From positions 62,682,001 to 62,746,000 of the forward strand of contig OX638150.1 of assembly GCA_951804945.1 (NCBI GenBank): a stretch of 64,000 nucleotides of DNA. The letters are read 5' to 3'. The stretch's first letter is position 1. Each line of letters begins with the position of its first letter. The DNA is from Podarcis cretensis. Lineage: Eukaryota. The notes under the pieces were generated by a model, which saw nothing but the letters and a program-made list of their open reading frames with translations, searched no databases and had not been told where the DNA came from. Positions 3,103 through 62,280 of the stretch are shown here, piece after piece. Both the position numbers and the translations under genes were made by a program.

Positions 3103-3315
3103 CTCGTGTGCATTGTCACCACAGCTCTTCTTCCGTCCTCCTCCATTGTTACACGATTGCTTGGACGGAGTTTTCTGCAGAAAGTCAGAGATTCTCTGCA
3201 CCAGGAAATCACGGTCTTTCAGGTTAGCAAAAAGGAAGGTCATTTTGCTTTTGGTACTGATGGACAGTGGGCTAGGTAATACACTGGAACTGTCAGCTTT
3301 TTCAACAATTGTGAC
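3103..3315 (-). CDS. TBC1D9B: TBC1D9B coding exon 7 (213 nt)
   Basis: VTIVEKADSSSVLPSPLSISTKSKMTFLFANLKDRDFLVQRISDFLQKTPSKQSCNNGGGRKKSCGDNAHE; ctag acceptor, GAG|gtatga donor (3' end is in a poorly conserved stretch). Confidence 0.92.
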
Positions 3316-3968
3316 CTAGAGAATATACATGGGGATCATTTGGGTGTATCAGGCTCCTTTGTATTAACATAACTTCTAAATTTAACTTTTAATAGATTAT
3401 TCACAACTATGTCAGTTATCTTACTAGCAACTCCATAATTGACACATATGGAGGTGAATGCTGTCAAGATATTCCTGAAGACACTGAGTTTTTTTTCTGT
3501 ACAGGTAGATGCCACAGTGCATGTGAAACATAGAAAACTGAAATGCTGCAAGAAGTGTGATAAAGAAAGGCTATTCTACTTAAGTTCTACATTTCTGAAA
3601 CACCTGCTTTATTTCAGACGGTTCTCACGCTAAACCAGATAATGGTTTGGTTCTTTGACTCTAGAAGCTGCTCTGACAAAAGTGGAGAGGGAGCCCTTGG
3701 ACTCTTGTTGACTCTGTTGTGTATATAAAACTGCTTCTTCAAACAGTGGCCACAGAATTCCTATCAGCTCCCAACTCAAAATATAGCCGCAACTGAAAAA
3801 TATAACTGGATCTTGTCGCCATCAGCCTAGAAAATTATTTAACCAACAGGCCAATCTACTAACACTCAAAAACAAACCTTCAAATATTTCCTGAAAAAAT
3901 TGAATAAGCATGTAACTAAGTAACAATGAGATACTAAGACAATTCATCCTTAAGAAACAGTGTCTCAC

Positions 3969-4176
3969 CTCCCTGAGTGGTATTATGAGATGGCAAGCCT
4001 CCTCTGCCTTGCTAGCAAAACAAATATAGTTGTTGGAAACAAACATCTGTCCAGGAATGTGAATTTTGTTGAATGGGGTCCACAAAGTACAATCTGTATG
4101 CCCATCAAGACGTTCATCCTTAGGAAGTCGAAATGAAGCACGGTACCATTCATTTTTGGCTCGAGCATCCAAATCT
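3969..4176 (-). CDS. TBC1D9B: TBC1D9B coding exon 6 (208 nt), GRAM domain 2
   Basis: DLDARAKNEWYRASFRLPKDERLDGHTDCTLWTPFNKIHIPGQMFVSNNYICFASKAEEACHLIIPLRE; ttcag/gtgaga. Confidence 0.96.
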
Positions 4177-5264
4177 CTGAAGAAAAATGATAATACACAC
4201 CAGATACTAAGTGGGAAAATAATACATTCCACTATCCAACCATTACAGGAAATGCCCCTTTTCAATGCAGCTTACTCAAGATTCTATTTCCATCCAACAC
4301 AAAGTTAGGCCTGAGTAATGAGAGGCAAAAATTCCTAGTGATGATAAATACTTTTCATCCCCATAATCATTTGGTTGCCCTTTTCTTAACCTTTTCCAGC
4401 TCTATATCTTTTGTGGGGAGAAGAACCAGTGCATTGCTGTACAACACCCTGACATTTTATGAGATGGTGGTTTACAACTACTTCTATACATAAATTAATA
4501 CATAAATTGTGAAAAAATGCAGGTGATGACAAAAATAATGCTCAAATAAAAGGAAAATACATTTTGTCAACTTCAGTGTCAAAGATGGTGGATCTAGTCC
4601 AACAAAAGTTCAGTACCTACAAAGGATCCCCATAGAGTATAATAGAACCTTTTTCTCCCCTACTTCTGTGTACATACAGACACTCAGCACCCCAGACTGC
4701 TATAGAGAATGGGAGGTCTATTCATGCCTCTAACATCCCATCCAGCCCTCCCAGCACTACCTGAACAGAGGAATGGATGGGGAGATGCACAAAAACACCC
4801 ATTTCCCATAATGGCCTGGTCTACCGAGATCATACTAGAGTGGTTGAGATGAGGAGGAACACAGCCCTATGATGGATTAGTGCAAGCCCATAGTATACAA
4901 TCAGAAAACTAATATCCTTCCATTGGAATGACACCAAGAGAACAACTTCACAAATATTAATTTTTCTACAGTCCATTTTCCATGTCCAGTACAACTTCCA
5001 AGTTAAAGGTTCCTGAATCACTTAGTAGGTTCAAGAAATGTAAATAGGATCCATGGGAAGGGGCTGAGAGCTGTCCAATATAAAACCTAAATGCTGATTT
5101 CTGGAAAACTTAATCCACATTTATGTTTCTGTGATTTCCAGACACAATGATACAATCCAGTCCAGAAACATATTTAACTATTCTTAAAATGATTCCTTGT
5201 GCCAAGGTGTGTGTGAGTGTAGCAAGAGAGGGAGGGAGATGGACAGACAGACAGACAGACATAC

Positions 5265-5523
5265 CTTTTGAGTGCTGAAATATTTTTGAGAGGCTTGCTG
5301 GGCTTAGGAAGCAACATGTCCTCCACATACCCTTTATTATCAAATAGTTGCCGCATGGCAATGTTAGCCAGCTGTTCCATTAACTTGAAGGTCTCGTTGA
5401 TGTTGAGGAACATAGAGAAGTAGAGCTCACTGTCCCTGGTACTCACTTTGATGCATTCAGGGAATAGAAGGGTGGCATTCTTCTCCAGCTGGGTTACATC
5501 TACCCACTGGACTATTAAGGTCA
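5265..5523 (-). CDS. TBC1D9B: TBC1D9B coding exon 5 (259 nt)
   Basis: VTLIVQWVDVTQLEKNATLLFPE...KNISALKR; ctag acceptor, gtatgt donor. Confidence 0.96.
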
Positions 5524-5778
5524 CTAGGGAAACATGCAAACGCAAAGCAACAATTACTATCAGATTTCTAACAGACATTTTAAACAAATTAGAACACAAC
5601 AGATTTGAAGCCTATCTGTTTTTCTTTTTTTAATTATAGCTTGACTCAGTGAAGTACTTAAGCAGAAAGAAAACAGATTGGGAAGGAAGCCCTGCAAAAT
5701 ATTTTTAAAATGTTGTTCAAATAATATTTGGGGGCTGCAGCATGGATGTAGAGCTGCTGATTGCTTAAATATCCCTAA

Positions 5779-5812
<34 letters not shown>
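5779..5812. repeat. (AAC)n microsatellite
   Basis: About 11 perfect units. Confidence 0.95.
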
Positions 5813-5813
<1 letters not shown>

Positions 5814-5977
5814 GGAGTGCAACCTCCCCTCCCTTCTGGAGTACCAATTTCTTCCACTGCCCCAACTGGGCCTCACTATTAAGACAATATGGATGTACAA
5901 CCAGATATGAAACCACCTTTAAAAAGTGCAGTTAGAAGTGCTGGACAAAAAAAAACATTAAGCAGCTGACCACTTAC

Positions 5978-6206
5978 CTTCTTTGCCTAAAAGGAAAGAA
6001 TAGAAACAAAGGTGATTAACAGTCAGATACAGCCAGCCTTGCCTAGGGACACGTCCTTTCCAATAGCTGCAGGAATAGTAATTCACTAGTTTCTCTACTT
6101 CAGGCATTCCGAACTGTTTACGCATCTTCATTTCAGCTTCTTTAAATTTACCAGGATCTTCTTCCCCCTGAGGCTGTTGATTCTTATTTTCTTCAGCAAT
6201 AATGCC
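5978..6206 (-). CDS. TBC1D9B: TBC1D9B coding exon 4 (229 nt), start of GRAM domain 1
   Basis: [76 protein letters not shown]; gcag acceptor, gtaagt donor. Confidence 0.96.
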
Positions 6207-6428
6207 CTGCAGGAATGAGTAGCAAAAGTAGCAGATGAAAATATAATGGCCTCTAAAATTCTTTGTTGCATTATTTATTTGCTATGCATAGCTGACAAGT
6301 GTACCACTTGAGGTTATGCTTCTGGGTGGATATAATACAATTTCCAAACACTCAAAGTTCAATGTCTGTCGTTGGGCGGCATTTGTAGGGCCAGGGGTTC
6401 CTCGCGCCTGATCGAAAGAATGAAAATA

Positions 6429-6751
6429 CAGTGGTGCCTCGCAAGACGAAATTAATCCGTTCCGCGAGTCTCTTCGTCTTGCGGTTTTTTCGTCTTGCGA
6501 AGCACGGCTATTAGCGGCTTAGCGGCTATTAGCGGCTTAGCGGCTATTAACGGCTTAGTGGCTTAGCGGCTATTAACGGCTTAGCAGCTTTAAGAAAAAG
6601 GAAACAAACTCGCAAGAACTCGCAAGACGTTTCGTCTTGCGAAGCAAGCCCATAGGGAAATTCGTCTTGCGGAACGACTCAAAAAACGGAAAACTCTTTG
6701 GTCTTGCGCGTTTTTCGTCTTGCGAGGCATTCGTCTTGCGAGGTACCACTG
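6429..6751. mobile_element. Tc1/mariner (Tigger/pogo-like) MITE
   Basis: TIRs cagtggtgcctcgcaagacgaa / ttcgtcttgcgaggtaccactg, TA target duplication, internal (TTAGCGGC)-type array. Confidence 0.9.
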
Positions 6752-7614
6752 TATATATATATATCTGCACTGTACTCTGAAATATGTGATAGCTCATCCA
6801 CAACTACGCTTGTTGAGTGCTTGTGCCAATGCACATGTGCATACTGAATACTGCCAGTAACATTTGTGACAAGGCCTCCAATGTTGTGTGAACTTCCTTC
6901 ATAAGTTGTTTATGTTTATTTGTTTTACGCTGACTGCATGCAAAGTTTTAAATCAGGGCTGGCTGAAAGCATGGTGCTCTTTGAGACACTGCCTCTTCCA
7001 CCAGCACGTTGAGCCCCATTGCTGCCAAAGGCTCCCCATGTGTGACCTAGCGAGTGCCTGTGCCGTCATTGTGCAAAAGCTTCTCAAGAATTTCAGTGCA
7101 GTAAAGTTTAACACTTTTAAAGTAGCACCCTCTGGGGCCGCAATGGTGAGAAAGGGCTCACCATGTCTAATGAGAGCACTGGTTTAAGCCTCAAGTGCCA
7201 AACCTACTGTAAAGAAATCATGCAGGCAGTGAAGGCGTACAACTGCAATGGAAGGCAGAAAAAATACTTCCAGATGGAAAGTAGCAACAGCGTATATATC
7301 CTTGCCGAAGCAAGGACAGATGAAAATATATGGAAGTCTGTTCAAACTGAACCTTGGCTCAAGCACAATCATAGTGTTGATCTTTAACTATATGGTAGAA
7401 TGTTAAACTAGCCAGCCTATTTTATTGTTCCAGGTGAAATGAAAACACTCTAGATGGGCGGCTCTTTAGCTCTTTCGTCCCTTCCTCATAGCATATGGCA
7501 AATATTTATCCTACATCCAACTTTATGTAACAATTCACAGCCTGCAGTTCTTATGGATTGCCATTCTGTTGCTAAAAAACTGGAAAAGTTCCATGACAAA
7601 TAGGTGCCACTTAC

Positions 7615-7733
7615 ATGTATCTTGCCCTTGACAAAGGTAGTGATATCTTCTTCATTGTCAAAGATAGAAAGTGTCTGAAGCAGGTTATTTTCTAGCCATT
7701 CCCAGTGTTTTGTTATTTCCTTACGCGATGAAC
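7615..7733 (-). CDS. TBC1D9B: TBC1D9B coding exon 3 (119 nt)
   Basis: GSSRKEITKHWEWLENNLLQTLSIFDNEEDITTFVKGKIH; AG/GTAAGT boundaries. Confidence 0.96.
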
Positions 7734-7814
7734 CTAAGGAGAAATTCAGAAACAATCAGATAACAGCTACTATAAGGAGCAGGTCAATAGTTTTGGGGTT
7801 CTCTTGGATCCACT

Positions 7815-8375
7815 ACTATCACTGGGGGCAGAAGTGGCTCCAGTAGCATGGAGTGCCTTCTACCAGCTTTTGGCTTGGCAGTCTAGCTATGTTCCTTCCA
7901 TGGAAAGGGATAATCCAGTGTCAGTAATCTGTAATCTAGAAACCTCTAGATTAGATTACTGCAATGTGGTGTATGTGGGGGTGCCTCTGACGATTGTTAG
8001 GAAACTGCAGCTGGTGCATAATGCAGCAGCGAGGCTGCTGGTGGACATGTAGCTATCTCACCACATCACCAGTTCTGGCAAAATGACAGTGGCTATGTAT
8101 ATTTTCTGAAGCTCAATTCAAAGTGCTGGTTTTAACATACAAAGCCATATACAGGTCAAGACTCCAATATCTAACGGAACACATCTCCTGATTGGAACAT
8201 GCATACTGCATCCGAGGCTTTTCTCCAGGTGCTCTCTATGAGAAAGGTTCAGTGAGCATTGCAATTACCCTCCCTCCAATTTATTGAATACTCTCTTCTG
8301 TAAAGCCTGCCTGGCACCAGCATCAATATCCTTTTAGCACCAGGATCAGATGTACTCTTCTCCCAGGTTTTTTGA
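7815..8375 (+). mobile_element. Degenerate L2-clade LINE ORF2 3' fragment
   Basis: Peptide TSRLDYCNVVYVGVPLTIVRKLQLVHNAAARLL is the typical L2 post-RT motif. Confidence 0.8.
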
Positions 8376-8897
8376 AGGATTATGGTAATCATGCTTCCTG
8401 CTGTTTCTCTATCTGTATTTTTGGGGTGGGGTGGGAGGTGTTGTTCTTTTATGGTTTAACTGTAACTTCGCCACTTAAAAGCAAACTTTAACCTTCTATT
8501 CCTTATATTAAATACTTTCTACTACTGGTTAAATTAGATAGCCAGTATTTACTTAATATACCTCTGCTAGCTCCCCGCCAGCCCACCCTCTACTTCACAC
8601 AAATTTGCTTGCTATCAGCCAATTGGTTTTGAACAGATCTTGGACAATCAGGGGTTTTTTCTACTCCACCTGATACAATTATAGAATATTGGATTAAAAC
8701 TTTGAGTAAAATGGCCATAATCCAGATGTGCAACCATGGGCCACATGTACACCCAGATTTTTCTAAAATTTTCAGAATGTGCCTCTGAAGAACACTTGAA
8801 CTGCTCAAAAACCCTTCTGAGGATATTGTAGCTGGCTGTGGGGGACAGCAATCATACACTGGCAGAATTTATTTGTTATAGAATGGTATTTACTCAC

Positions 8898-9008
8898 CAC
8901 ATGCCACTGCCCAATAGATTTGAGAATCCTGTGTCTGATGTAAAATTCTGTAAGGAGCAACCCTAGCGCTTGAGTCCAAAACCACATCCAAGGTTCCCAC
9001 AAGCAGCC
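8898..9008 (-). CDS. TBC1D9B: TBC1D9B coding exon 2 (111 nt)
   Basis: [37 protein letters not shown]; acceptor cttag, donor gtgagt; not in the ORF track. Confidence 0.95.
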
Positions 9009-9139
9009 CTAAGAAGACCAAGATGCAGAGAGAAACATAATGAATATTATCTGAGCAAATGAGAGAGTTAAATAAATGGTGGGATGATTTAAAATAAAGT
9101 GTTTATTGATACAAAAGTTTATAAAGGATGTGAGATCCC

Positions 9140-9495
9140 AAGAAGGGTCTACTGAATCAGACAAAAGGCCCATCTAGTCCAACATTCTTCTTAAGAGTGC
9201 CTAAGCAGATGCCCAAGGGAAGCCCGCAAACAGGACCTAAGCACTACAGCAGTGATCCCACCTGCCATGAACGGCAGCTGGTATTCAGGGCATACTGCCT
9301 CTAACAGTTTCACTGGATGTCTCTGAATTCCAGTATTATGAGGGAGAAATAAAAAACTCTGTGTTCACCTTCTCCACACCAGGCATAATTTTATACACCC
9401 CTATCATGCTGCCTTTTCTCTGAACCCAAGTCCCAAATGTTGTAACCTTTCCTCTTAGGGGAGTTGTTCCATCATCCCCATGGTCATCTTAGGTT
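9140..9495 (-). mobile_element. Old CR1-like LINE fragment
   Basis: cagacaaaaggcccatctagtccaaca... and cttctccacaccaggcataattttatacacccctatcatg resemble reptile CR1 3' regions; boundaries approximate. Confidence 0.55.
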
Positions 9496-11453
9496 GTTTA
9501 AGTCACCCCACTTTTTTAAAAAACACACACAGATAAAGCAACTGTCTGAAATGCTTGGTTCAGACACAATGCTAAACCATGCCCCTTGTGCATGGGGAAA
9601 TTCCACTTTCTTTTTGGGGTTGTGACAAATCATAGTTTCCTAGTTGTCCAAACTATGGTTTGTGCTTTCCCTTCAAACCAAAATTGGGAATAACAAAGCT
9701 CAATCCATAGTTTCCAATCCTGATCTGAACGGCAAGCACAAACCACACTTTGCACATTAAGGAGAGACTGAGGTTTCACAAACATTTGAAAAGCAGAGTC
9801 ACTAAAACAATGCATTCTTAACAGGGAAAGGAACACTGAGGCACAACAGCTGAAGGAGAACTGAAATTTATACAGCATGAAAACTGGGTTTAATGCAGTG
9901 TTAGAATAGCGTACTTGAAGCTTCTTCGCAAATGCCTTCAGAATGCTGTAAGTGGTAATGTTATTTACTATTTTACACAGTGTTAGGCCTGTTGCACATT
10001 TTCTGAGTGGAGAAAGACTAGAAAGAATTATGTGATGGTGACTGGGTGCAGAATTATACTGACAGTATATCATTGCCAATGAAATATTGAAGGAAGTTAA
10101 GCTAATGCATTAGCTTTCCAATTGGCACTGTGTACCTGAAAAGAAGTTGTAGTCTCCAAGAGCAGCTGAGAATGTCCTCTTAAATATACTTTGTATATAC
10201 CACGTCCAAACAACAGAGACGTGCATGTAGGGAGGCACTCTCAGTGATGCATCCCTTTAGAACTAGAACTCTCTTCCTTTAGGGATTTACTAATTTCATA
10301 TCCTGAGTTATCTTCCATAAATGATGCAGGGTATTCCTATTTGTGTCATTTAGTTGTGGGGAGGGGCAAGACAACAAATAACTGCTTGTTTTTCCAAGAT
10401 GATAAAACTAAGTTTTTACAAAGTATACAAGATCTGTACATTTAATCTATGATTTTTTTATACAATTAAGATTTGTTGAGGATCATTATAAGTTATTTTC
10501 AATATGGTAAATTATAAATTTATTAATTTATAAAGATGCTCAGGCCACCCCAAAAGTTTAAACTTGACACAAACTATCTAAAAAATTTGAGTAGTTTGCA
10601 TTTCAAGGCCATTTCTGTTCCAATTTTCTCTTTCAGTCTCTCTCACACACCTACCCAAATGATACCATGCATCTGGTTAAGTACACAAAAGCTTATGCCA
10701 CAAGAAATCACATACAGATGCAACAATAGACTTTTATGTTTTTACTGGAACATGACAACCTTATACGTGTATTTCAAAATGTTCACAGTATTGCTGGACC
10801 ACCCACAAAGCTGAAATCTGGTGCATGTGTAGCCCAAGATACAATTCTTCCTAGATAGCATGTCCAAACTCTGGACATGATGTTTACTTCATAATAGAGG
10901 CCATTCTCTGTGCATTCCAGCACAGAGCAAGCCAAGGTATACCTGTGGCAGAATGGTGGGCTACAGGAGTTCTGTTGTGTTGTCCAGCTTGGGGAGGGGC
11001 AACTTTCAGTAACAGCCAAGATTATGTACATAAACTTACAGAGTGCAAGTTTCATTTGCTTGTAAAATAAACAAAGAATGCCAATGCATAAACCAGTGAT
11101 TTAAGTTTGGCAACAAATACAAGCCTGGCTGTGATAAACTCCCCTTAGGACTTCCTAAGTAGGGCAGTCCCTGCCGCAAGCTCCAAGCACAAGCTCCTGA
11201 AGAGCAGGGTGTTGTTGTTTTTAATGTGTTTGAAATTTTACAAAGAAAAAGAAAATGTTATCAAAGTCCCTTTACACTGTAGATGCTGACTGCATACGGA
11301 ATACTCTCCAATTTCTTAACTATGGTTAAGAGATTCAAGGCATTCCACAAGCTTGCTTGCTTGCTTTCTTTCTTTCTTTCTTTCCAGAATATATTAAAAT
11401 TTTAACAAAATGACGTGGACACTGGGGAGGGAAGACTTTTGTTGTTCATTACC

Positions 11454-11495
<42 letters not shown>

Positions 11496-11503
11496 TATTA
11501 TTA
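11454..11503. repeat. (TAT)n microsatellite at an L2-like tail
   Basis: Direct reading. Confidence 0.9.
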
Positions 11504-11551
11504 TACCTCCCTATGGCCGTAGATCTCAGGGCGGTTCACAGCACATTATCA

Positions 11552-11912
11552 GGGACGCGGGTGGAGCTGTGGTCTAAATCACAGAGCCTAGGGCTTGCCA
11601 ATCGGAAGGTCAGCAGTTTGAATCCCCATGACGGGGTGAGCTCCCGGTGTTTGGTCCCAGCTCTTGCCCACCTAGCAGTTCGAAAGCATGCAGTGCAAGT
11701 AGATAAATAGGTACTGCTCCAGTGGAAAGGTAAATGGCGTTTCCGTATGCTGCTCTGGTTCGCCAGAAGCGGCTTAGTCATGCTGGCCGCATGACCTGGA
11801 AGCTGTCTGCGGACAAACACAGGCTCCCTTGGCCTATAGAGCGAGATGAACGCACAACCCCAGAGTCATCCGCAACTGGACCTAATGGTCAGGGGTACCT
11901 TTACCTTTACCT
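11552..11912 (+). mobile_element. Sauria SINE, full length, with 37-bp flanking duplication
   Basis: Same head/core/(ACCTTT)n tail; 11512-11548 duplicated at 11913-11949. Confidence 0.93.
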
Positions 11913-13769
11913 TATGCCCGTAGATCTCAGGGCAGTTCACAGCACATTAGCAGTGATGTCACAGACTGTTTAAAATGTGTTATGGACACTTCTGTAACTA
12001 ACTAGTGAAATGAAACCAGGGGAGGGAGGGAAATCACATGTTCTCAGGAGCAAAACTCTTTTGAGTGCTAGGCAAACTGTATTTCCTGAATGGCAACTTT
12101 ATTTTAATAAATCTTTTTATAACAAATAATCATTATACATGCACTACTTTTCTAAATGGATAGATAGACAGTCTGTGTGGTAAGATAAACTGGGATCTTT
12201 TAAAACACTGTTTGAGAAAACAACACACACATGTATATGAACATTTTCTCCTGATAAAAGAAATGTTAGCATTTTATTGCCACATTACCAACTGAATGTT
12301 TTTGGCTTAATCTCTCTTTCTATATTAAGAGGCCTGTATGCGGCCTGTATGCATATATGTGGGAATTTGCAATGCTTGAAGCACTTATGACATGAGGGAA
12401 AGAACCTGATGAAATATCCCTTCTTATGCAAAGTACTGTAAAGGAACCCAGCTTCACGCTAGGGAGATAGCAGCTGAAATACCTGAAATTCCACTATATA
12501 TAAGCATTTTGCAGACTTTCGCAAGATTTGCAGCTGCAAAGATACAGCTACCGCTACCACATACATATCATGTGTGTAAGATCACTAGCTTCTTCTGCCC
12601 ATATCAAACAAATTACCAGATCCAATCATATTCAACAAGCAAAATTCACAATTAGGCATGAAAATGACCAAGGCTACGGATCTAAGTTAGCTCAACTTAG
12701 GTACCACTGAAATCTGTGGGTAAATTAGTCATGACATTGATTCAACAACCAACACAGTGCAAACCTATGTATTACTCAGAAGTAAGTCACACTGAGTTCA
12801 ATGGGGCTTACTGGATATAGGACTGCAGTCTTAGTCTGGACCCAATCTATTGTCTGCACTGTCCTATGGAGATTAACTTTTGTTGAGAAAAATGAAATGA
12901 TAACACAAGAAAGTATACTTTTGCAGGAAGACTGTGACCGAAAACAACACCACAGCAATACCATTCCTGTGTTTACACAGGCAACACTTACTGTCTTGGA
13001 ACCAAATTTATCTATAATACTAATATATGCTAAACAGATATGCAGCAATTCACAGAGCTGCTTTGCATTGGGCCTTCAAGAATCTGCAGTGCAGATGTAC
13101 TGCATATAGTGTGAATAAATTCAGCTTGTCTCTGGGAGCCAAGCGAATGAGTGGGTATGCTACTGGCATACAGGAATTTTACTTGAAATTAGCTTTTGTT
13201 TAAAACTACCACAAATGTTACAAGTGTAATACTAAGTTGCTGAAATAATGTGGATTAGAGCATCAGCCTCTAGAAAGCAAAATAATTAGCTGCCTTGTTT
13301 AAACTGAAATCCTTTAAAACTGTGCACATATCCTACGAAGCTCTAAAGTAAAATGTTTCAATACCGACATATTATTTACCAAATGAAAATATACAAGTGA
13401 TGTATTAATCAAAAAAGCCTTTCAACAATGTTTTTCGTTTGTTTATTTCCTCCCACGTCAGACGTTGCGAAACTCCACAGAGCCCCTCCTCTGTATTTCA
13501 TTGCCACACACGGGAGGGGCACATTCAAATATACATGTTTACGGGGCACGCATCCCCCAAATTTCACCTCTGTGTTGGTGGTTGGGGCGGGGCGGGATCA
13601 CAAGTCAAGAAGAGCCTGCTGATTTGAAAGCCTTAGGAGAAAGGGGAAACCAGTGTCGAGGCTTTTGCGCACAGGCACCATCACCCAGGGCAGGACCTAA
13701 CCCGTTCAGCACCCAGAAGCATCCTCTCTGGTCTACCTAGGGAAAGGGTGGGGAGGTAGAGACACCCAC

Positions 13770-14700
13770 AGGCAACGGGCGATGCCACTAGCCAACTACT
13801 TGGCTGGATGGGGGGGGGCCACTGGACCTGACACCCGCAAGCCGCAGCGGCCCTGGGCGAAAAGGCCGGACTCCCTGTGCGTTTTAAAGCGAGGGACGAG
13901 GGGCAGCTTGCGGCTGCGAATGCGCTTTCGGGCGCTGCCCTGACTGGGCCCATTCTCTCCCCGAGAGGCCTTCCCAGCAGCGCCTCTGCTGCCCGCGAGG
14001 CCCCGGGCGGCGGCGGCGGCCGACGGACTCCCCTCTTCCAACTCCTCCGGCGGCTCCACTCACCCGTCAGGCCGCCCCCCTTGCCGTGGCCCCGCCGCCG
14101 CTGCAGGAGGAAGAAGGGGTTGGCCCGCTCCGTCACCCACAGCGCGTTGGCCAGCAGCACCTCCTCCGGGCCCAGCCACATAGCGGGGCCGTCGCCGCTG
14201 CGGCGCCACTGCCGCCACCCGGGCACACTCCGCCGTCTCCGAACCGGGACCGGCCCGACAGTCACAGGTGGGTCACGGGGGCTACGCACGTCGCGGACCG
14301 AGCCCGGAGGAGCTGTTGCCTGCCTACTGCGCCCTCTAGCGGCGTGGCTGGCGCACCGCGGCGCAGGGAAAACGGCCATTTTTGTCGTCGTCGTCGTCCC
14401 CCGCACTGCGAAGCTGAGCCGAGTCCAGGCTCTTCCCAAGCCGCCTAAAACCACGACGGTCGTCGCCCTGTGGCTACACGGTCCTACGCACACATTGGGG
14501 AAGTGGGGCTGCATTGCTGCTATACCCGTTCGACCTGGGAGTAACACCCCCTCCCCTCTGAAGTCAGTGGGGCCTTCTCATGAGGAGACCTGACTAGAGT
14601 GGCACCGTCAATCCCGTTGCACCTGGCGAGACTTGGAGTGTGTCGTGCGGTGGGCAAAGCTGTGTGACCCCGCAGACAAAGGCCCTCGCCATCCGGGTAT
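13770..14700. promoter_or_regulatory. CpG island / promoter of TBC1D9B
   Basis: Very GC- and CpG-rich segment spanning exon 1; YY1-like GCCATTTT at ~14375. Confidence 0.85.
14064..14181 (-). CDS. TBC1D9B: TBC1D9B coding exon 1 (118 nt)
   Basis: ATG at 14181; [39 protein letters not shown](G); donor G|GTGAGT; inside CpG island. Confidence 0.96.
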
Positions 14701-40425: not shown

Positions 40426-40933
40426 CTGAATAAAACACAGAGAGAGTTTTTAGGTGTTGGAAAAACTGTGCTTCTTCCTCTTAAATCTCCTTTGGTTATA
40501 TACTAAAATGGTGATTACAGCTTGTTCACTATACTCTGAAGAGTACCAGGTGCACAGTTCATGGCACTTTCAAAACTAAAGTCTCTTTGGGCCATAAACA
40601 TCAAGCTCATATTTTATGGGAATCCCTTTTAGTTGCAAGCAAGAACGTCTACGCTTAAAGTGCAGATTCACCTTCAACAATATTATCCAAGGCAATTGAG
40701 AATGGCCAGCTGCCAAGTGATTCAATAGATTTCTGAGACAGGTCACTTTGAATAGAACAAGCTCACATTTCCTTGCTTCAGTAACCAGGAGTCCCAACAG
40801 GAGGAGGATTAGGTTTATACTGTGAGGATCAAGCAATGTGTTAGCATTTTTGCTCTTTAAGCTACTGTAATTATGTTGTTATTTAGAAGACTATGCTGTT
40901 ACAGAGATGTTTCCTGATATCATCTTGTAGCTA

Positions 40934-41267
40934 CAGTGGTGCCTCGCAAGACGAAAAGAATCCGTTCCGCGATTCTCTTCGTCTAGCGGTTTTTTCGTCT
41001 TGCGAAGCAAGCCCATTGACGGCTTAGCGGATTAGCGCTATTAGCGGCTTAGCGGCTTTTAGCAGCTTATCGGCTTAGCGGATAAGCAGATAAGCGGCTT
41101 AGCGGCTTAGAAAAAGGGGGGGAAAGTCGGAAAAACTTGCAAGACATTTTCGTCTTGCGAAGCAAGCCCATAGGAAATTCGTTTTGCGAAGCGCCTCCAA
41201 AACGGAAAACCCTTTCGTCTAGCGGGTTTTTCGTCTTGCGAGGCATTCGTCTTGCGGGGCACCACTG
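40934..41267. mobile_element. Tc1/mariner (Tigger/pogo-like) MITE, same family as 6429-6751
   Basis: TIRs cagtggtgcctcgcaagacgaa / ttcgtcttgcggggcaccactg, TA on both sides. Confidence 0.9.
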
Positions 41268-42383
41268 TATTCTGGAAACACCTGAAACCAGAAATCTCCG
41301 ATTTTTTTTAATTTCTCAAGTTTGTCAATAATATGTAAAGAGAGATTCAATTTTGTGTTAATCTTTGCTAGATGTATTTCTTTGCTTTATAGGGGGATAG
41401 ATCCTGAGTGCCCTTTCAGCAAACAAAAAGGCACCTTCCATCTATGGAAAGGCTCCAGATACGATAAAGCTACCTATTAGAATGGGGAGGGGGGCCTTGC
41501 ACTAATTTCCCCTTTCCCCTTCAGCCCTTTGCAGCATCGCCCATTCTGTTCCAAAGGGTGCCCAAACCCTCCAGATCAGCCTTTCAGGGGGCACAATGGA
41601 AGGAGGAATCAGCAATCAAAAGAATCATATTTCAAAGTAACATATGGAAAGGGCCAAATCAGAGGCGATTCCAATGTTTACATTCAACTGGACGCTTAGG
41701 ATGATGACATGGAGAACATATTAATCCATTGTGCTAAATACTTTGGTCTGCTTCTGCTTGTTTGTGCCTCTGGATGTCTCCTACATTATTCAAGTATGTA
41801 TCATTTATTTTTCTCATTGTCCATCAAATATGAGAAAAATAGGAAGCTCATCAGCGCTGTAAAGTCACATAGGCTATAAAGAGAAAAGCAAAAAAGTCCC
41901 AAAATCAAGTGTTTTCAGCATACTTCCACTCCTAAACACTGCCATATAATTTCAACACATTAAAATCCAGCCAGCCCCTTGATAAGCCAATTGCAGGTCT
42001 CCTGCAACAAAAAGCTAAGTAAGACTGCCCTTTGTATGCTTCAATCAATACAGCAAACAAGCCAAACAGTCTCTTACTAATCCAATATTATATGGATGGT
42101 ACTGTGGAGAGAACCATTTACACTCCAACTCATTTTAATGCAAAGTTGCTTACAAAATTAGAAGTACACTAAAAAACAAAACAGCTGAAAGCCCAATTTA
42201 AAATAGTAAAACCAAAAGATCAACAGCAGCAGAACCTGCCCCAGTAATAAACATCACAGATTTCATTTGAAAAGGTTTTAAATATTTCAGTCAGTCTCAT
42301 AATGGGGTAATGGTCATCCCAAAATGGCAAAGAGAAGTGGGTATTGTTTATTAATTTCCATTACGTTTTCCCTAACCTAAGAC

Positions 42384-47535: not shown

Positions 47536-47786
47536 CTGGTTCCGATCACGTGCACTTGTATATCTGATCTTCTGGATGAAGTAAAATATTAACCATGCTG
47601 AAGAAATTATCATCAAAACTATGAACGATATTGATACAAAGACAAGAGAACCACGGTTAAAGTTTTTGTTTGGATAGCGGGTTCCAACTGCTATTGCAAT
47701 AATGACAGACATATTTTTCTCCAAGTAATTCAGAATCTCCTTAACCTTCAATTCTGTGATCATGACAGTGACAATGTCTCCAGTTC
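47536..47786 (-). CDS. RNF130: RNF130 coding exon 3 (251 nt), end of PA domain and transmembrane helix
   Basis: [13 protein letters not shown]...[40 protein letters not shown]; atag/gtaact. Confidence 0.97.
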
Positions 47787-48118
47787 CTATCAAAAGAATA
47801 AGCAGAAGAAAACAATGAATCAACATCTGACATAACATGTATGTTTATTAAGAAGCAAATCATTTGGCTGTACATATATAAATTTAAACAAACTGTTAGG
47901 TATCAAAAAGCTGATCCCGAATTATGAAAAACAGTATGACATTAGCAGCCTCAAATTTCAGAAAATTAGGAAAGCAACATGATTTTACAAGCACTTTTTT
48001 ACATGCACATCTCTTAACCAACATCAGTTCAAAATGATTTAATTTCAAAACAACACAAATATGAACTAATCATACTGATATCTACCAAGTACAAAGCAGT
48101 GAGACAAAAAAGCACCTA

Positions 48119-48491
48119 AAGGTAAAGGTAAAGGTACCCCTGCCCGTACGGGCCAGTCTTGACAGACTCTGGGGTTGTGCGCCCATCTCACTTAAGAGGC
48201 CAGGGGCCAGCGCTGTCCGAAGACACTTCCGGGTCACGTGGCCAGCGTGACATCGCTGCTCTGGCCAGAGCCAGAGCCAGAGCCGCACACGGAAACGCCG
48301 TTTACCTTCCCGCTGGTAAGCGGTCCCTATTTATCTACTTGCACCCGGAGGTGCTTTCGAACTGCTAGGTTGGCAGGCGCTGGGACCGAGCAGCGGGAGC
48401 GCACCCCGCCGCAGGGATTCGAACCGCCGACCTTTCGATCGGCAAGTCCTAGGCACTGAGGCTTTAACCCACAGCGCCACCTGCGTCCCCT
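48119..48491 (-). mobile_element. Sauria SINE, young subfamily
   Basis: Reverse-oriented full copy; 15-bp TSD acaaaaaagcaccta (48104-48118, 48492-48506); CpGs intact. Confidence 0.95.
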
Positions 48492-50383
48492 ACAAAAAAG
48501 CACCTACATTCCTCCTAAATATAGCAGTTTAGTTCTGAGGCTAAAGGAAATTCAAAAACACTGAAAGGAATTGGCCAAGCTATACCTTCACCCTTGAGTA
48601 AATGAAAAGATAATCATATTCCTTCTTGAGTGACCTAGAAAGTAATGAATGCTCCACTGGGCCAAGTATACAGGATAATATCCAACTAAGCAACTAAGTC
48701 ATACTCAGAGTTAATCTCATGAAATTAATGGTCAACAATTTTCCACTGATATAAATGAGTGAACTCCAAACATAACCAACATTGGATATACTGTAATACA
48801 CAATCACTAGCTTAGTGATTTAGTGATGGTTTTTGGTTTTCACTCAATCCAAGAAACAGAACTGAAGGTCCCAGAGTAAAATTCAATGAAACCATCCAGC
48901 AGCAATAAAAAAAATGCAATTTTAATGGTAGAGCTTATTGGGCAAATTGAGAAAGGAAACTTAAAATAATGTTGTATATATATCTCCTGTGTACAGCATA
49001 TCTCTGCCTAACAGATACTGGGTGAAAACACTGGACAACTCTACCACACCCGATTGTGAGCTATAGAAGCATTTTCTTTGATGCTGGAGACAGAATGATG
49101 TACTCAAACAATTGGTCTGTCACAGTTCTCTTGCTGCTTATCTACTCTAATCTTAATTTTTTAACAATTGCCACAAATAACCTAGCAACTATATTTTTCT
49201 CCCTTACACAAGTCCAGGTAACAATAATTTAGAAGCCAACCATGGGAACTAATAAGTATTTGATACCTTTCTGTAGATGCTTTAATGTAGCATTCGGAGA
49301 CTATGAACTTGAATATAATGCATCTGGTCACAGGTCCATCTAGCCAGTAATGTCTATTTTATGCATTCATGCTTTTTGAGAAGCCCACAGAGTACAAAAA
49401 CAACAGCCCTCTCCCATTATTACACCACCAGCAATTGGTGTTCAGGTACATGCTGGCTCTGAATCTGAAGGTTTGCCCAGAGCTAAAAACATATCACCAG
49501 AAGCAATTAGTCTACTTGAATGTTGTCTACTACTGGACGCCAACTATTCTATATTTTACTGCATTTTGCAGTGGAAAAGCTCCTAGCATTTATTGTCTAC
49601 TCGACTACCCCTATTACATTAAGGCAGTTAAGATCAGCCAGTGAGGGGCAAACAAGCAGGTTTAGAAAGAAGCAGGCCAGGGCTGAAGGTTACAGCAAAT
49701 CCAATGGATACCTCAATGCCAGCTCCCAGGGTACAACAGGAGAGGACTAACTAAAAATTAGATTAAAAGTATATGCAACTAATACTTGGCTGAGCACGAT
49801 TTCCAGCATTAACCTATGTCTAGGAAGAATGCAACTGAAGATTTCCCTTTGTCAGAGAAATAGTATACTATCATAGTTCAACAGCGCAATATGGGCTCCA
49901 AGTCTTGTATTTTCAGATACTATGCTAATGGAAAGCTGCCATGAAGGGTTTCTATAGATCATGTATGTTTTGTAGAATATTTGAGCACAGCTAATACGCA
50001 TATGCAAATATGCGTTGGAAGGGATTGTTGCACAAACCATACTCCGTATACTTATCCTTCTTCCCATCTAGTTTCTGTTACAGGCATTAAACTAAGCACA
50101 TTATTTTCTTCTCTGTCACAAATAAAGTAGACATGGCAATATGCTATGGTCATGCAGCTAGTGGAGACTGCCAGTCTCAGCACTTTATCCAGCACTTTTA
50201 TAAATCAAAGAATGAATGACCAACTTCCACGCTTGATAATCACAAAAAAGACAAAACGCTGTTAACTATCCACCATGATGTATCTGAACATGTCTAAAAA
50301 CAAATCACAAATACCTTTAAAAAGTCTTACAACATAAGAGAAATAAGAAAAAAATGAGGAGAAAGGAATATCTTAGCTTTTAC

Positions 50384-50575
50384 CTGGATGAGTCATGGTG
50401 ACAGGCTCCTCACTTGACATATTATTGTAAATTACCACAGCTGAAGCATTATGTAAAGCTGCCCGCAGGATTTTTTGTTTAAAGGTGCAATTTCCTCGCT
50501 GCAGTAGGGCAACCCACTGCTTGTTTGTAGGAACTGGAAACCGAGTTCGTGGATCACAGCCTAAACGATCTGAAA
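50384..50575 (-). CDS. RNF130: RNF130 coding exon 2 (192 nt), PA domain core
   Basis: [64 protein letters not shown]; tttttag acceptor, gtaaaa donor; phase 1-1. Confidence 0.96.
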
Positions 50576-51030
50576 CTAAAAAAAGGAGAGAGATGTCAGT
50601 TAAAGTTTGTTGATAAAAATATCTAAAAAGCAGTTCACTGGCTAAAATTATTCTCTAGTTATGAGACCAGAACAATTTGTACAACCCAAAGCAATTTTTA
50701 AGCTAAATAATAATCTCTAAGTGTTAACCATATTTGATCATTATGATCATTACACTTAAGGATTTTTTTCAGTTCCAGAATACTTACTAGTGAATATTTT
50801 CAATACCTGGTCAGAGGAATGGCAAAACGTTAGGATAAATTTGTTCATGTACCGCTGTCATCTTAAGTTGCCCAAAATTTATGTATATATTTAGAATTTA
50901 GAATGCAGATTTGGAAGCGACTCAAAAGGCCATCTTGTCCGTCCCCTACCTGGAATATCAGAATCACAGATGGCCATCCAACCTCTATTTAAAAATCTCT
51001 AATTGCTTGGTACTCCAATTGCTTGGTATA

Positions 51031-51401
51031 GGGACACGGGTGGCGCTGTGGTCTAAACCACTGAGCCTGGGGCTTGCCGATTGGCAGGCCGGCAGTTCGA
51101 ATCCCCGCAACAGGGTGAGCGCCCGTTGCTCGGTCCCAGCTCCTGCCAACCTAGCGGTTCGAAAGCACATCAAAGTTCAAGTAGATAAATAGGTACCGCT
51201 CCAACGGGAAGGTAAATGGCATTTCCGTGTGTTGCTCTGGTTTCACCAGAAGCGGCTTAGTCATGCTGGCCACATGACCTGGAAAAACTGTCTGTGGACA
51301 GACGTCAGCTCCCTCGGCCAGTAAAGCGAGATGAGCACCGCAACCCCAGAGTTGTTTGTGACTGGATTTAACTGTCAGGGGTCCTTTACCTTTACCTTTT
51401 A
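51031..51401 (+). mobile_element. Sauria SINE, older copy
   Basis: Head gggacacgggtggcgctgtgg, (ACCTTT)n tail; near-perfect TSD ccaattgcttg(g/a)ta. Confidence 0.92.
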
Positions 51402-53133
51402 CCAATTGCTTGATACTTGGGAGACAGTCCTATTGTAAAAGCTAGCTTATAAACTAAGAATATGCAGTATAGAGATAAGAGCAAAAAAAGATTTTATTTG
51501 CTATAGTTTGGTATGATTTTATTAACTATATCAATGATTTAAAAAAATGAGAAAGACCCCCTCCAAAAAAATGTATACAACTTGATATGGCAAATTTAGT
51601 AAGATGCAATGGTCAATCTTTATGGTAGCTTTGAATCAGTACAATGTCTAATTGTGCCTCTACATGTATCAGAAAGGCAAAGAGGCTGGCAATCTCTGTC
51701 CTCTTCATAGCTTCTCATAGAATCTTCCAATATTTACTGGAACTAAAGGATACTACCATACACCTTGAGTGCCAGACACATCAATCAGCATTGTAAAGGA
51801 CACAGACAACCATGTCAGCAAGTTTAATTGTCAATAGTTGTCCATTATCATCTGTCATCTATGATCAGTTATTTAGAATCCATTTCTAATGTATATTTTT
51901 CTCAAGCTGAGGACTCTGAATATATATGCTGGAAAGTCTCCATGGCATAATGAAAAGCAATTTAAGAGTAATTTCAAGCTTATACAAATCACTTATTTAA
52001 AAATATGTGATCTGAAGTCATTTATGTCATTTCACAATCGTACAAAAGGTTACTATATAAAATGTTTTCTCTTTTCAATAAAGTGCCAAATTCACTTTAT
52101 TCACATCAACCTAGTCTATTTCAAATTCAAGTACCTTCTCTGTACTGACAACCATCCTCTACCTTAGCTCACTCACAATGAATTCTGAACTTCTTGGGTG
52201 CAGTGAATTTGCTATGCTTTCCAGTTTTTCAAGCAACCACATTCAAAGATCATCTGGCTCAGAACATTTAGAGCTAAGCCACTTAAACTTAATATTATTT
52301 AGAATCTGATCTAACATTGCATGCAAAACTGCTATCTAAGGTCTTGTCTTTCAAGTTGGTTAATTCTTTTTTTATTCAGTGGTGGTGTTCAATGCCTACA
52401 GCACAGGTGATGCTGTAATACTCAAGTACTCAACAAGTTGCTGTAATGCTCTAATACTCAACAAGTAGTGGATTATTTGGAGAAACTGGTCTGTCCCACA
52501 AAACATGCAGAAAATGGGATTTCACCATCCTATTAAGTATCCTTCCTAGTCCTTCCAAGAGCTTCCAATGAAGTATGCAACTGCTTATTTTCTGGTAGCT
52601 ATTGTACCTGCTAAAGCAAAATCTTCTGCATTTTCTATGTGTTATGTGTGAGAAACTTTTGAGGTTACACCTGGCAAACTTGCATAGTTGTGCTAATTAG
52701 AGAAAAATAGAAATCCCCAGGTGTCATCTTTTGAGCTACAGGAAATAGACTTGGCAGAAAAGCATGTAAGCTGAAGCAACACTGTGCTCAGACAGTTGCA
52801 ATTTATTTTGGGTGGGGAAGTAATTTCAGTCCACAGAATTTTGGAGCATAATCCACTCCAAAGGAGAATCTAAATCTCAAAGTAGTACAGTACTCTGTAT
52901 AACACTGCAACATCTTGGTTACCAGCTAGCAGACAGTGCTGATCAGATGCTTCTTGTTACAGATAGCTCTCTTGACCTTTACCACTCTGGAAATATCCAC
53001 ACCTGAGATGTACACATTATATAAATTTCAGGGGTGGAGGGAATCAAACATGCCTCTAACTGAATTGCAGGTGCACTTTTCTGTAAACAAGTTTCCCTGA
53101 AACACCTTTTCTTGACTACTTAAATACAGAATC

Positions 53134-53505
53134 GGGACGCAGGTGGCGCTGTGGGTTAAAGCCTCAGCGCCTAGGGCTTGCCGATCGAAAGGTCGGAGGT
53201 TCGAATCCCTGCGGCGGGGTGCGCTCCCGCTGCTCGGTCCCAGCGCCTGCCAACCTAGCAGTTCGAAAGCACCTCCGGGTGCAAGTAGATAAATAGGGAC
53301 CACTTACCAGCGGGAAGGTAAACGGCGTTTCCGTGTGCGGCTCTGGCTCTGGCTCTGGCCAGAGCAGCGATGTCACGCTGGCCACGTGACCCGGAAGTGT
53401 CTCCGGACAGCGCTGGCCCCTGGCCTCTTAAGTGAGATGGGCGCACAACCCCAGAGTCTGTCAAGACTGGCCCGTACGGGCAGGGGTACCTTTACCTTTA
53501 CCTTT
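53134..53505 (+). mobile_element. Sauria SINE, young subfamily
   Basis: Full copy; 14-bp TSD ttaaatacagaatc (53120-53133, 53506-53519). Confidence 0.95.
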
Positions 53506-53847
53506 TTAAATACAGAATCATCCAGCCCATGTGACAATCTGTATCACTTCAGATTACAAATGGATGGATGAAATGGTGAAAGCTCACATATTACAAAACT
53601 GCACAAATGGGTTGGTAAAGAATGTTGGTCACCAATGAAAGGAACCTGTCAGTGAAATGAAGGAAGATGGCAATTCCCTTCCCCACTACACGTCCCATGC
53701 CATCATCTGTTTGAGGATCCCTAATCCCCTGAAGCAGATGTGGCGGGGGGGGGGGCAGAGAGCTATGAGAGGGAGGAGAATTGCCCCCCTCCATTGCCTC
53801 CCTTCCTCATTCTGCTAGCAGATTCCTTCTGGAGTTCTAATCATCCA

Positions 53848-60650: not shown

Positions 60651-60909
60651 CTCCATTGATTGGCAGAGGTGCCAAAAGTTGGCCTCTGACAGCTACTTTG
60701 GGAGAATCTTGTCCATAGCGCCCACGCTCAAGTATCAGCAAAGTAGGTGTTGAACGATCAGGACTCAGTACAGTCACATTTATGAGGGCTGTATAATATG
60801 CTTGACTAGCATTATCTGCACTAGCTGGAAGAGTGTAACAATTAAACAGGACCAAAATGGGCACAGAGGATAAATAGCTCCAATAAGGCAAAACCCACTT
60901 TAGGAACAT
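60651..60909 (-). CDS. RNF130: RNF130 first coding exon (259 nt): signal peptide and N-terminal lumenal region
   Basis: MFLKWVLP...[19 protein letters not shown]...[26 protein letters not shown] resembles human [17 protein letters not shown]...RGRYGLDSPK; donor G|gtaagg. Confidence 0.92.
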
Positions 60910-61289
60910 TTTCAGCCCTAAAAAATGTAAATTTTATCTTCAAAACGTCTCTTGAACAAAAGATTATTGTGTGCATAAATTCATGTTATTCCATATCACA
61001 ATAAAAAGGAATTAGAATCGCTACAAGAAGCAAGAGAGCCACCCTGGGTGCCTAGTCCTTTCCATACATTCAGCCACCGGAGGAAGCTTAAAATGATATG
61101 GATGGTGGGGGAAAGGAGATTTTTAAAAAAATATATCGCGTTTTAAAAGGTGGAAACGAATCAGAACGAAGAAGCCGGGATAATAACCTAAGCCTTAGAG
61201 CAGCTGCAAGGAAGACGACACACAACAGCTTATTCGAAGGAGACGAGGAAGAGGGGGAGGCAGTGGGATCCAAATGCTTTAAAAGCAGA

Positions 61290-62280
61290 GGATGGGGCTT
61301 CAGAGGCCGAGCAGTCCGTCACTCGATTCCCGAAGAGAGGGGCAGCTCTGAGCCTGCCCGCTCCCCTCCTGGGGCTTCGCTTTCTGCCAAGGAGATGGAT
61401 GAAGGTAGGCAGAGAAGCGCAGGTGGCGGCGGCCGCTCCGGCGGGGCTTCGTATCTCCGGGGGCGGCCGCGGGGAAGGAGCGGTCGACAGTCTCGTCCGA
61501 GGGGGGGGAAGCAGTCACTCAGCGTCGCCGCTCCACCCGAGGGGCACAGAGAGACAGAGAAGGCGAACGGTGCCGCCGCTTCCAGGACAGCCTGCGGCTC
61601 GGCAAGGAGAGCGCTTCGGCGCCGCCGCTTCGGCCGCCCCGGAGCCTTCGGCCCTCCTCAGGCTTGCTGTCGGGTCCCGAGGCGAAGCCCAGTTTCGCGC
61701 GCAGCCTCCACAGACCCTCCCCAGCCCCAGGCGGTCGACTGCGGCGGAGTCAGGAGCCGCGGAAGCTCCATGGAGGCCGACTCGGCTCCGGCCGCTTCGC
61801 GAGTCCCTCCTCTTCCTCTTCCCACCCCACCCCCCTCGCTCAGTCCGGCCGCGCGACCAACAGCCGAAAGGGAGCTCGCGGCGCCAGCAGCCCCACCCAC
61901 CGAGCAACCGTCAAGCCTTTCCCTTTCCCCCCTCAGCTTGGAAACAACGGCAGCCGGCAGCGCCCGGGCGGGTTCTTACGGCGGAACCACCAACTGCAAC
62001 CTGCCGGGTAGTTTCTCGCGCCGCGTGCGCAGGCGCAGTGCGCCAACCCGTTGCTCGCCCTCGTCCTCTCCCCCTCCTCCCCCCACGCACCGCCACGAGG
62101 AGGTGGGAGGGAACTCGAGTGGAAAGTCACACCCACTCCTAGGGGAGGGTGCGCGAGCGTTACAGTCAGGGACTGAGGCAGCGGAGGCGGGGCTAGTTTA
62201 AAAATAGTTGGGTTGCGCTGGATTCTGAGGGAGAGGCGGCAGCGCGGTCGCTGTTCTTGGGGAGCTGAACCGTCGAAAAG
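61290..62280. promoter_or_regulatory. CpG island / promoter and probable 5' UTR of RNF130
   Basis: ~1 kb GC/CpG-rich block upstream of the ATG; NRF1-type TGCGCAGGCGCA at 62026-62037; GC box GAGGCGGGGC near 62184. Confidence 0.85.

What the first reader, a model, noticed from the sequence alone, without database searches (positions are those of the whole stretch)
48119..53505. Near-identical inverted Sauria SINE pair brackets the frame-preserving PA-domain exon of RNF130
Seen: copies at 48119-48491 (-) and 53134-53505 (+) differ at only about 5 of ~370 positions by eye, have different TSDs (independent insertions) and sit in introns 2 and 1, ~4.6 kb apart, around exon 2 (192 nt, phase 1-1). 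A third, older copy (51031-51401, +) could compete for the same partner. Known: inverted Alu pairs drive back-splicing, exon skipping and ADAR editing in primates. Inference: a ~370-bp dsRNA stem in the pre-mRNA could give an exon-2 circRNA and an in-frame RNF130 lacking the PA core, i.e. a lizard SINE analogue of the inverted-Alu system.
Basis: partly seen in the sequence, partly recalled or inferred. Interest (0 to 1): 0.72.

Follow-up and report, generated by a model that had tools for sequence, protein, structure and literature searches.

The report
Young inverted SINE pair around RNF130 exon
Two nearly identical jumping-gene copies face each other around one exon of a lizard RNF130 gene; both are recent, missing in a close relative and likely still present in only some individuals, so this is likely one of about a thousand chance pairs in this genome that would fold the unspliced RNA, not an evolved splicing switch.

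Summary
Two independently inserted Squam1 (Sauria) SINEs, 5 mismatches in 372 nt and 4,644 nt apart, flank the 192-nt, phase 1-1 PA-domain exon of RNF130 in a lacertid lizard. It is no more than chance gives. The genome holds 25,232 exact copies of a 37-nt subfamily tag, which predicts about 1,140 inverted pairs within 5.4 kb. The first 100 listed copies already contain 7 such pairs; one, 99.2% alike, brackets a frame-preserving glycogen phosphorylase exon. Both RNF130 copies are absent in a relative about 1% diverged (each empty site bridged by one contig). Contig ends indicate that both still segregate among window-like samples (inferred). The exon-skipped, PA-less RNF130 is on record in mammals, birds, turtles, amphibians and bichirs, so skipping does not need these SINEs. 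A stem of about 370 bp is predicted and is probably edited. Back-splicing and extra skipping are untested, because the RNA runs come from another lineage and show no intronic reads. Verdict: a new member of a known kind. Its value is that a polymorphic pair allows a carrier versus non-carrier test.

The parts
48119..48491 (-). Young Squam1/Sauria SINE copy A, 372-nt variant; sense in the RNF130 pre-mRNA, in the intron after the PA exon
   Evidence: Pol III box A and box B motifs and ACCTTT tail; absent in run X19
48104..48118 (.). Target-site duplication of A, left copy (right copy 48492-48506)
   Evidence: X19 contig joins 48103 to 48492
53134..53505 (+). Young Squam1/Sauria SINE copy B, 372-nt variant; antisense in the pre-mRNA, in the intron before the PA exon
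   Evidence: absent in run X19
53120..53133 (.). Target-site duplication of B, left copy (right copy 53506-53519)
   Evidence: X19 contig joins 53119 to 53506
51031..51401 (+). Older Squam1 copy C, about 76% alike to A and B, 455 nt before the exon's acceptor; present in all DNA runs laid; weaker partner for A (-551 vs -868 kcal/mol)
50384..50575 (-). RNF130 PA-domain exon, 192 nt, phase 1-1
   Evidence: covered by RNA reads and an RNA contig of organism A
47536..47786 (-). Next RNF130 exon (251 nt, transmembrane segment)
60651..60917 (-). RNF130 exon with the ATG (60909); AG acceptor just upstream suggests an earlier 5'UTR exon
48116..48138 (-). Candidate cryptic 3' splice site made by A's pyrimidine-rich tail plus the TAG of its target site, 329 nt upstream of the true exon 47786 acceptor; use not shown
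   Evidence: 15 of 20 pyrimidines; true acceptors of the two nearest exons 16-17 of 20

Best explanation
Two recent copies of a young, abundant Squam1 SINE subfamily, each with its own target-site duplication, lie in opposite orientation on either side of RNF130's PA exon, likely by chance and likely not yet fixed; on haplotypes with both they would pair into a stem of about 370 bp in the pre-mRNA that ADAR likely edits and that likely changes splicing little. Shown: the anatomy, the separate target-site duplications, the copy numbers, absence of both copies in a close relative, and the exon-skipped isoform on record far outside squamates. Inferred: chance juxtaposition, polymorphism within the window's lineage, stem formation in vivo, editing, and a small effect on an old leaky skip or on trace circRNA as a by-product with no selected role.
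For: (1) 25,232 exact copies of the 37-nt tag (16.7 per Mb) predict about 1,140 inverted pairs within 5.4 kb; about 4% of random 64-kb windows would hold one. The rarer 372-nt variant that both copies belong to has 2,629 exact tag matches and still predicts about 12 such pairs. (2) The first 100 listed copies hold 7 inverted and 10 direct pairs within 5.4 kb. The 5 inverted pairs scored are 96.1-99.2% alike, 2 of them at or above this pair's 98.7%. One brackets a 147-nt phase 0-0 glycogen phosphorylase exon with a 1,559-nt loop. (3) A and B share no variant that sets them apart from the other aligned copies, and A's differing bases at three positions recur in other copies, which fits separate source copies without local conversion. 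(4) X19 (organism D, about 0.9-1.3% diverged) has single contigs across both empty sites. (5) In X15 (organism C; 1 other letter and 2 gap letters over about 4.9 kb of laid flank) the contig ends fit empty alleles at both sites. In X16 and X17 contigs stop exactly at B's duplication edge, whereas they run about 24 nt into the fixed copy C, the pattern of a two-allele fork (inferred). (6) Exon1|exon3 joins occur in 7 of 120 listed RNF130 hits and 23 of 137 proteins after cluster look-up: rat, bats, bovids, rhinoceros, primates, quail, chicken, turtles, caecilian, frog, bichirs. (7) Literature passages: SINE hyper-editing is already reported in a lizard (8,663 sites, PMC5625713); circRNAs track young species-specific TEs as a by-product (PMC8516420, abstract).
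Against: No RNA from a carrier was available, so 'little effect' is not shown. Deleting one Alu reduced skipping in seven human reporters by about 1 to over 40% PSI (PMC13019944, passage), so a near-perfect 370-bp stem could matter. Long, near-perfect stems are reported as depleted even in pre-mRNA (PMC7006430, passages), so the effect could be harmful rather than neutral. None of the 12 lacertid RNF130 hits listed is a skipped isoform, so baseline skipping in lacertids is not on record there. The polymorphism reading rests on contig-end arithmetic, not on a displayed joint, for organism C. The 100-copy sample comes from one chromosome end.
Confidence: 0.72

Rival explanations
1. The A-B stem measurably loops out the PA exon in carriers, raising an old PA-less RNF130 isoform or giving an exon circle: a segregating splicing or circRNA variant like an Alu pair.
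For: Predicted 370-bp duplex with three G-U wobbles, one A-C and one C-U mismatch. Both arms lie within 2.6 kb of the exon, inside the 5-kb windows where inverted Alus are enriched around skippable exons (PMC13019027, passages). The exon is skippable in frame in many vertebrates.
Against: Enrichment of inverted SINE pairs around alternative exons was not seen for mouse B elements (PMC13019944, passage). The acceptor has a strong pyrimidine tract (17 of 20). A 192-nt single-exon circle is short (recalled). No supporting reads exist here.
Confidence: 0.15
2. The haplotype is mildly harmful (long near-perfect double-stranded RNA, or a cryptic acceptor at A's tail) and is on its way out.
For: Probable polymorphism. 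Long near-perfect stems are depleted in pre-mRNA across species (PMC7006430, passages). A's tail creates a pyrimidine tract plus AG at 48116 that the empty site lacks.
Against: No deficit of inverted pairs could be shown at this distance in the small sample (7 inverted vs 10 direct). In dogs the deficit was seen only below about 100 bp (10.1101/2020.10.27.358119, passages).
Confidence: 0.08
3. The pair is an evolved regulatory switch for RNF130 PA-exon inclusion, a lizard counterpart of the TBXT Alu pair.
For: Frame-preserving exon encoding the PA core.
Against: Both copies are absent in a relative about 1% diverged and probably absent from some window-like samples. An equally good pair turns up within the first 100 copies listed.
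Confidence: 0.02
4. One copy is a local duplicate of the other, or the two were homogenised by gene conversion, or the pair is an assembly artefact.
For: Both belong to the same rarer 372-nt variant.
Against: Different target-site duplications; 29 unlinked copies are closer to B than A is; no shared private variant. Each site has a clean empty allele in X19. Phasing of A and B on one haplotype was not checked.
Confidence: 0.03

Closest known systems
Inverted Alu pairs flanking exons in primates (exon skipping, circRNA, ADAR editing; PMC13019027, PMC13019944)
   Same: Two SINEs in opposite orientation in the two flanking introns, within 5 kb, predicted to form a long stem around a coding exon.
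   Different: tRNA-type Squam1 instead of Alu; 98.7% alike and 372 nt long; both copies very young and probably unfixed; no RNA evidence here.
Squam1 (Sauria) SINE presence/absence loci in lacertids (PMC10670947, PMC10058329)
   Same: About 360-370 nt, Pol III box A and B motifs, ACCTTT tail, very high copy number, empty orthologous sites in relatives.
   Different: Those passages treat copy number and orthologous loci, not RNA stems; the 372-nt variant with an extra hexamer unit was counted here, and I did not see it described in the passages read.
Polymorphic SINEC_Cf pairs in dog introns (bioRxiv 10.1101/2020.10.27.358119)
   Same: Young, near-identical, polymorphic SINEs that form inverted pairs in introns.
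   Different: Dog study found depletion at short spacers; this pair has a 4.6-kb loop with an exon.
Young-TE-associated circRNAs as splicing by-products (PMC8516420)
   Same: Recent, species-specific repeats supply the complementary arms.
   Different: Shown for five mammals with RNase R data; untested in this lizard.

Membership tests
Squam1 / Sauria SINE | About 360 nt full length | tested here: met
   372-373 nt between duplications; most young copies sampled 358-366 nt; length from PMC10058329 passage
Squam1 / Sauria SINE | Pol III box A and box B in the head | tested here: met
   Both motifs matched in A and B by recalled consensus patterns; box B degenerate in C. ARAGORN calls no tRNA gene
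Squam1 / Sauria SINE | ACCTTT short-repeat tail and target-site duplication | tested here: met
   tail motif named in PMC10058329 passage
Squam1 / Sauria SINE | Alignment to the published Squam1 consensus | not tested
Inverted-SINE exon-looping / circRNA system (Alu type) | Opposite-orientation complementary repeats in both flanking introns | tested here: met
Inverted-SINE exon-looping / circRNA system (Alu type) | Stem forms in vivo and is A-to-I edited | tested here: inconclusive
   Duplex predicted. RNA reads on the SINEs are a pile from many loci and the runs are another lineage
Inverted-SINE exon-looping / circRNA system (Alu type) | Back-splice junction or exon skipping in RNA | tested here: inconclusive
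   No such joint among 15 shown of 382 or 15 of 383; tables swamped by SINE reads; no intronic depth; no RNase R library
Inverted-SINE exon-looping / circRNA system (Alu type) | Effect depends on both repeats | not testable with these tools
   Needs carrier versus non-carrier RNA or a minigene
Fixed, selected SINE splicing switch (TBXT type) | Fixed in the lineage | tested here: not met
   Absent in X19; empty alleles inferred in X15 and a fork at B in X16 and X17
RNF130 (Goliath) PA-TM-RING ligase gene | PA, transmembrane and RING exons in order, best hits named RNF130 | tested here: met

The most novel reading that the evidence does not exclude
A recent Squam1 burst has left this lizard with on the order of a thousand near-perfect inverted pairs of over 300 bp, many still segregating, which act as natural splicing and circRNA variants; at RNF130 the two-insertion haplotype raises the ancient PA-less isoform in carriers, giving an outside-mammals, within-species test of exon loop-out by repeat pairing.
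Probability: 0.15. Interest if true: 0.6.

Novelty: new member of a known kind. Interest (0 to 1): 0.24.

Why it matters
As a single locus it matters little: it is one of many chance pairs. If carriers do skip or circularise the exon more, it would show that repeat-pair loop-out works outside primates, where mouse SINEs showed no such signal (PMC13019944). Because the insertions seem to segregate, wild animals would supply the control without engineering. The genome-wide load is also notable: humans have 197 inverted duplicates over 300 bp and over 96% alike inside RefSeq transcripts (PMC7006430, passage), while this lizard is predicted to hold about a thousand such genomic pairs within 5.4 kb (not all in genes).

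Tried and rejected
No RNA holder on record was listed for the stretch; not used as evidence. RNA runs X22 and X20 (organism A) cover both exons at depths of about 12-42 and 2-10 per bin, have almost no intronic depth, and differ from the window at 47657 in all reads, so they are another lineage whose SINE status is unknown. They cannot test the idea. Counts of A>G and T>C places in the RNA runs (43/41 and 40/40) against DNA runs (27/24 and 35/29) are dominated by reads of other SINE copies and were rejected as editing evidence. RNA contigs of X1 include the PA exon in an 827-nt contig but stop before B's site. Exon 60651 and exon 47786 were never in one laid stretch, so the skip junction was not looked for directly. 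A's status in X16 and X17 was not determined. Rfam: no real match (one hit, E 0.92). ARAGORN: none. Gene conversion rejected. Paper searches for circRNF130 found 0 papers. Searches combining Sauria SINE, Squam1, Podarcis or lizard with editing or circRNA showed no such study among the listed rows (only 20, 3 and 12 rows were listed). A search on RNF130 splice variants listed three reviews, not read. Earlier-findings look-ups returned nothing. A genome-wide test of inverted versus direct pair depletion was not possible, since only 100 places are listed per search. Supplements of the Squam1 papers (consensus sequences) were not opened.
Full report
1. Observation. Self-comparison of the window finds one long inverted repeat: 48118-48489 against 53134-53505, 372 nt, 5 mismatches, no gaps, 4,644 nt apart. 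Each copy has its own target-site duplication (A: 48104-48118 and 48492-48506; B: 53120-53133 and 53506-53519), and so does the older copy C at 51031-51401, which is about 76% alike to both. A and B carry box A and box B motifs and an ACCTTT tail. Length, boxes and tail match the description of Squam1 (Sauria) SINEs in passages of PMC10058329. I did not align to a published consensus.

2. Gene. The exon 50384-50575 (-) is 192 nt, phase 1-1, and matches Pfam PA positions 24-63 of 95. The next exon (47536-47786) is 98-99% identical to RNF130 of Podarcis, Zootoca and Lacerta, and P0001 maps on the window in 8 ordered pieces. The host is therefore a lacertid lizard. In the pre-mRNA the order is B (antisense), C (antisense), exon, A (sense). 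A can pair with B (370 pairs, -868 kcal/mol, longest helix 308 nt) or with C (310 pairs, -551, longest helix 32 nt). B and C share orientation. B lies 2,558 nt before the exon and A 1,894 nt after it.

3. Is it more than chance? No. A 37-nt tag from the 3' end has 25,232 exact matches in 1.508 Gb. Uniform placement predicts about 1,140 inverted pairs within 5.4 kb and such a pair in about 4% of 64-kb windows. Among the first 100 places listed (C1, 0.1-5.5 Mb, one chromosome end) there are 7 inverted and 10 direct pairs. Five of the 7 inverted pairs were scored (96.1, 97.0, 97.8, 98.9, 99.2%). Two were dropped because one partner was under 93% alike to B. I scanned 126 of 242 reading frames (those of 67 aa or more) from six fetched loops against Pfam and got one hit: a glycogen phosphorylase exon inside the 99.2% pair, whose loop is only 1,559 nt. 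That exon is AG/GT-bounded, 147 nt, phase 0-0. So a tighter and more alike pair around a frame-preserving coding exon appears within 0.4% of the copies. Even so about 12 inverted pairs of that variant are expected within 5.4 kb.

4. Origin of the two copies. All 29 other copies fetched as best hits to B are 1-4 mismatches from B, against 5 for A (these are selected for closeness to B). A and B share no variant that sets them apart from these copies, and three of A's differing bases recur in other copies. This fits separate retrotransposition events, not local duplication or conversion.

5. Age and fixation. In run X19 (organism D; 23 other letters in 2,504 nt and 22 in 1,743 nt) one contig joins 48103 to 48492 and another joins 53119 to 53506. 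Both young copies are absent there, and C is present. Runs X15-X17 (organism C, three samples) differ from the window by 1-4 letters in about 2,490 nt. In X15 the contig left of A stops fitting at 48103 as in X19, with 46 letters left over, which equals an empty allele overlapping the next contig by 30 letters. Its contig left of B runs 474 letters past 53120, which for an empty allele ends at 53980, where X16 and X17 contigs end (53978). The same arithmetic predicted X19's end correctly once its 8-letter insertion is counted. In X16 and X17 contigs stop exactly at 53133 and restart at 53506 and 53516, while at the shared copy C they run about 24 nt into the SINE. That is the pattern of a fork between filled and empty alleles. 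These readings for organism C are inferences from contig ends. Whether organism C is the window's species, A's status in X16 and X17, and the phase of A and B were not determined.

6. The PA-less isoform is old. Of the 120 hits listed (of 326), 7 join the ATG exon directly to the transmembrane exon: quail, turtle, rat, buffalo, caecilian, bichir, frog. Their clusters add chicken, sea turtle, bats, rhinoceros, sheep, goat, cattle, primates and reedfish. In all 23 of 137 proteins held show the join (21 by pattern, 2 more read by eye). Most are annotation models; the rat entry has accession AAI66595. None of the 12 lacertid hits is of this form. Squam1 is described as confined to squamates, so finding the skip in a lizard would not by itself implicate the SINEs.

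7. RNA. The runs offered are from organism A, which differs from the window at 47657 in 34 of 34 and 13 of 13 reads and shares several intronic alleles with organism D. They cover the exons, show almost no intronic reads, and the joint tables are filled by reads of other SINE copies (15 rows shown of 382 and of 383). No back-splice, skip or editing call can be made either way.

8. Mechanism. Most likely (0.72): a chance, recent, probably unfixed pair that folds in the nascent RNA of carriers, is edited by ADAR and has little effect on splicing. Editing is inferred from the general rule and from reported SINE hyper-editing in a lizard (8,663 sites; PMC5625713, passages). Rivals: a measurable carrier-specific rise in skipping or circRNA (0.15); a mildly harmful haplotype (0.08); an evolved switch (0.02); conversion or artefact (0.03). 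For rival 1, inverted Alus are enriched within 0.5-5 kb of skippable exons (PMC13019027, passages), and Alu deletion lowered skipping in seven reporters, but the link was not seen for mouse SINEs (PMC13019944, passages). For rival 2, long near-perfect stems are depleted even in pre-mRNA (PMC7006430, passages), though dog SINE pairs are depleted only below about 100 bp (10.1101/2020.10.27.358119, passages).

9. Comparison with what is known. It would work like an inverted Alu pair. It meets the anatomical test of that class, is untested on the RNA tests, and fails the fixation test for a TBXT-like switch. Presence/absence Squam1 loci number in the tens of thousands between lacertid species (PMC10670947, passages and tables). 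Young species-specific repeats are argued to give circRNAs as a by-product (PMC8516420, abstract only). PMC10702118 was read as passages. My searches found no paper on circRNF130 and listed none on Squam1 stems, editing or circRNA, within a library that lacks most subscription papers.

10. Verdict. Real, correctly described and ordinary as a locus: new member of a known kind, interest 0.24.

Noticed in passing
L033:418-2704 (G000:C1:4250617-4252903); exon L033:1583-1729 (-): A second young inverted Squam1 pair, 99.2% alike with a 1,559-nt loop, brackets a 147-nt phase 0-0 glycogen phosphorylase exon. It is a tighter candidate for loop-out than the RNF130 pair.
   Followed up: partly
genome-wide: At least 25,232 very young Squam1 copies (neighbours mostly 96-99% alike), with a 372-nt sub-variant of at least 2,629 copies carrying an extra hexamer unit: a recent, probably ongoing burst.
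   Followed up: partly
window 48116-48138 (-): A's tail plus its target site forms a pyrimidine tract with AG, a candidate cryptic acceptor absent from the empty allele. Antisense tails of B and C read as repeated AG|GTAAAG donor-like motifs.
   Followed up: partly
window 50384-50575 (-): As a circle the exon would be a 64-codon frame without a stop, with in-frame ATGs; a generic property of a symmetric exon.
   Followed up: no
window 60918-62100 (-): The RNF130 ATG exon lies outside the CpG island and has an upstream acceptor; an RNA contig of organism A has 355 letters on that side against a 267-nt exon, which fits a 5'UTR exon.
   Followed up: partly
window 40932-41270 and 6427-6754: Two copies (83% alike) of a roughly 340-nt element with terminal inverted repeats starting TACAGTGG, probably a Tc1/mariner-type MITE (label recalled). 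The first lies in an RNF130 intron and could fold on itself.
   Followed up: no
window about 3100-14300 (-): Exons of a GRAM-domain gene downstream of RNF130 (Pfam GRAM), probably TBC1D9B (name recalled from synteny), with older Squam1 copies at 27-379 and 11551-11913.
   Followed up: no
window 11509-11555 and 11910-11956: An unusually long 47-nt near-duplication (89%) flanks the Squam1 copy at 11551-11913.
   Followed up: no
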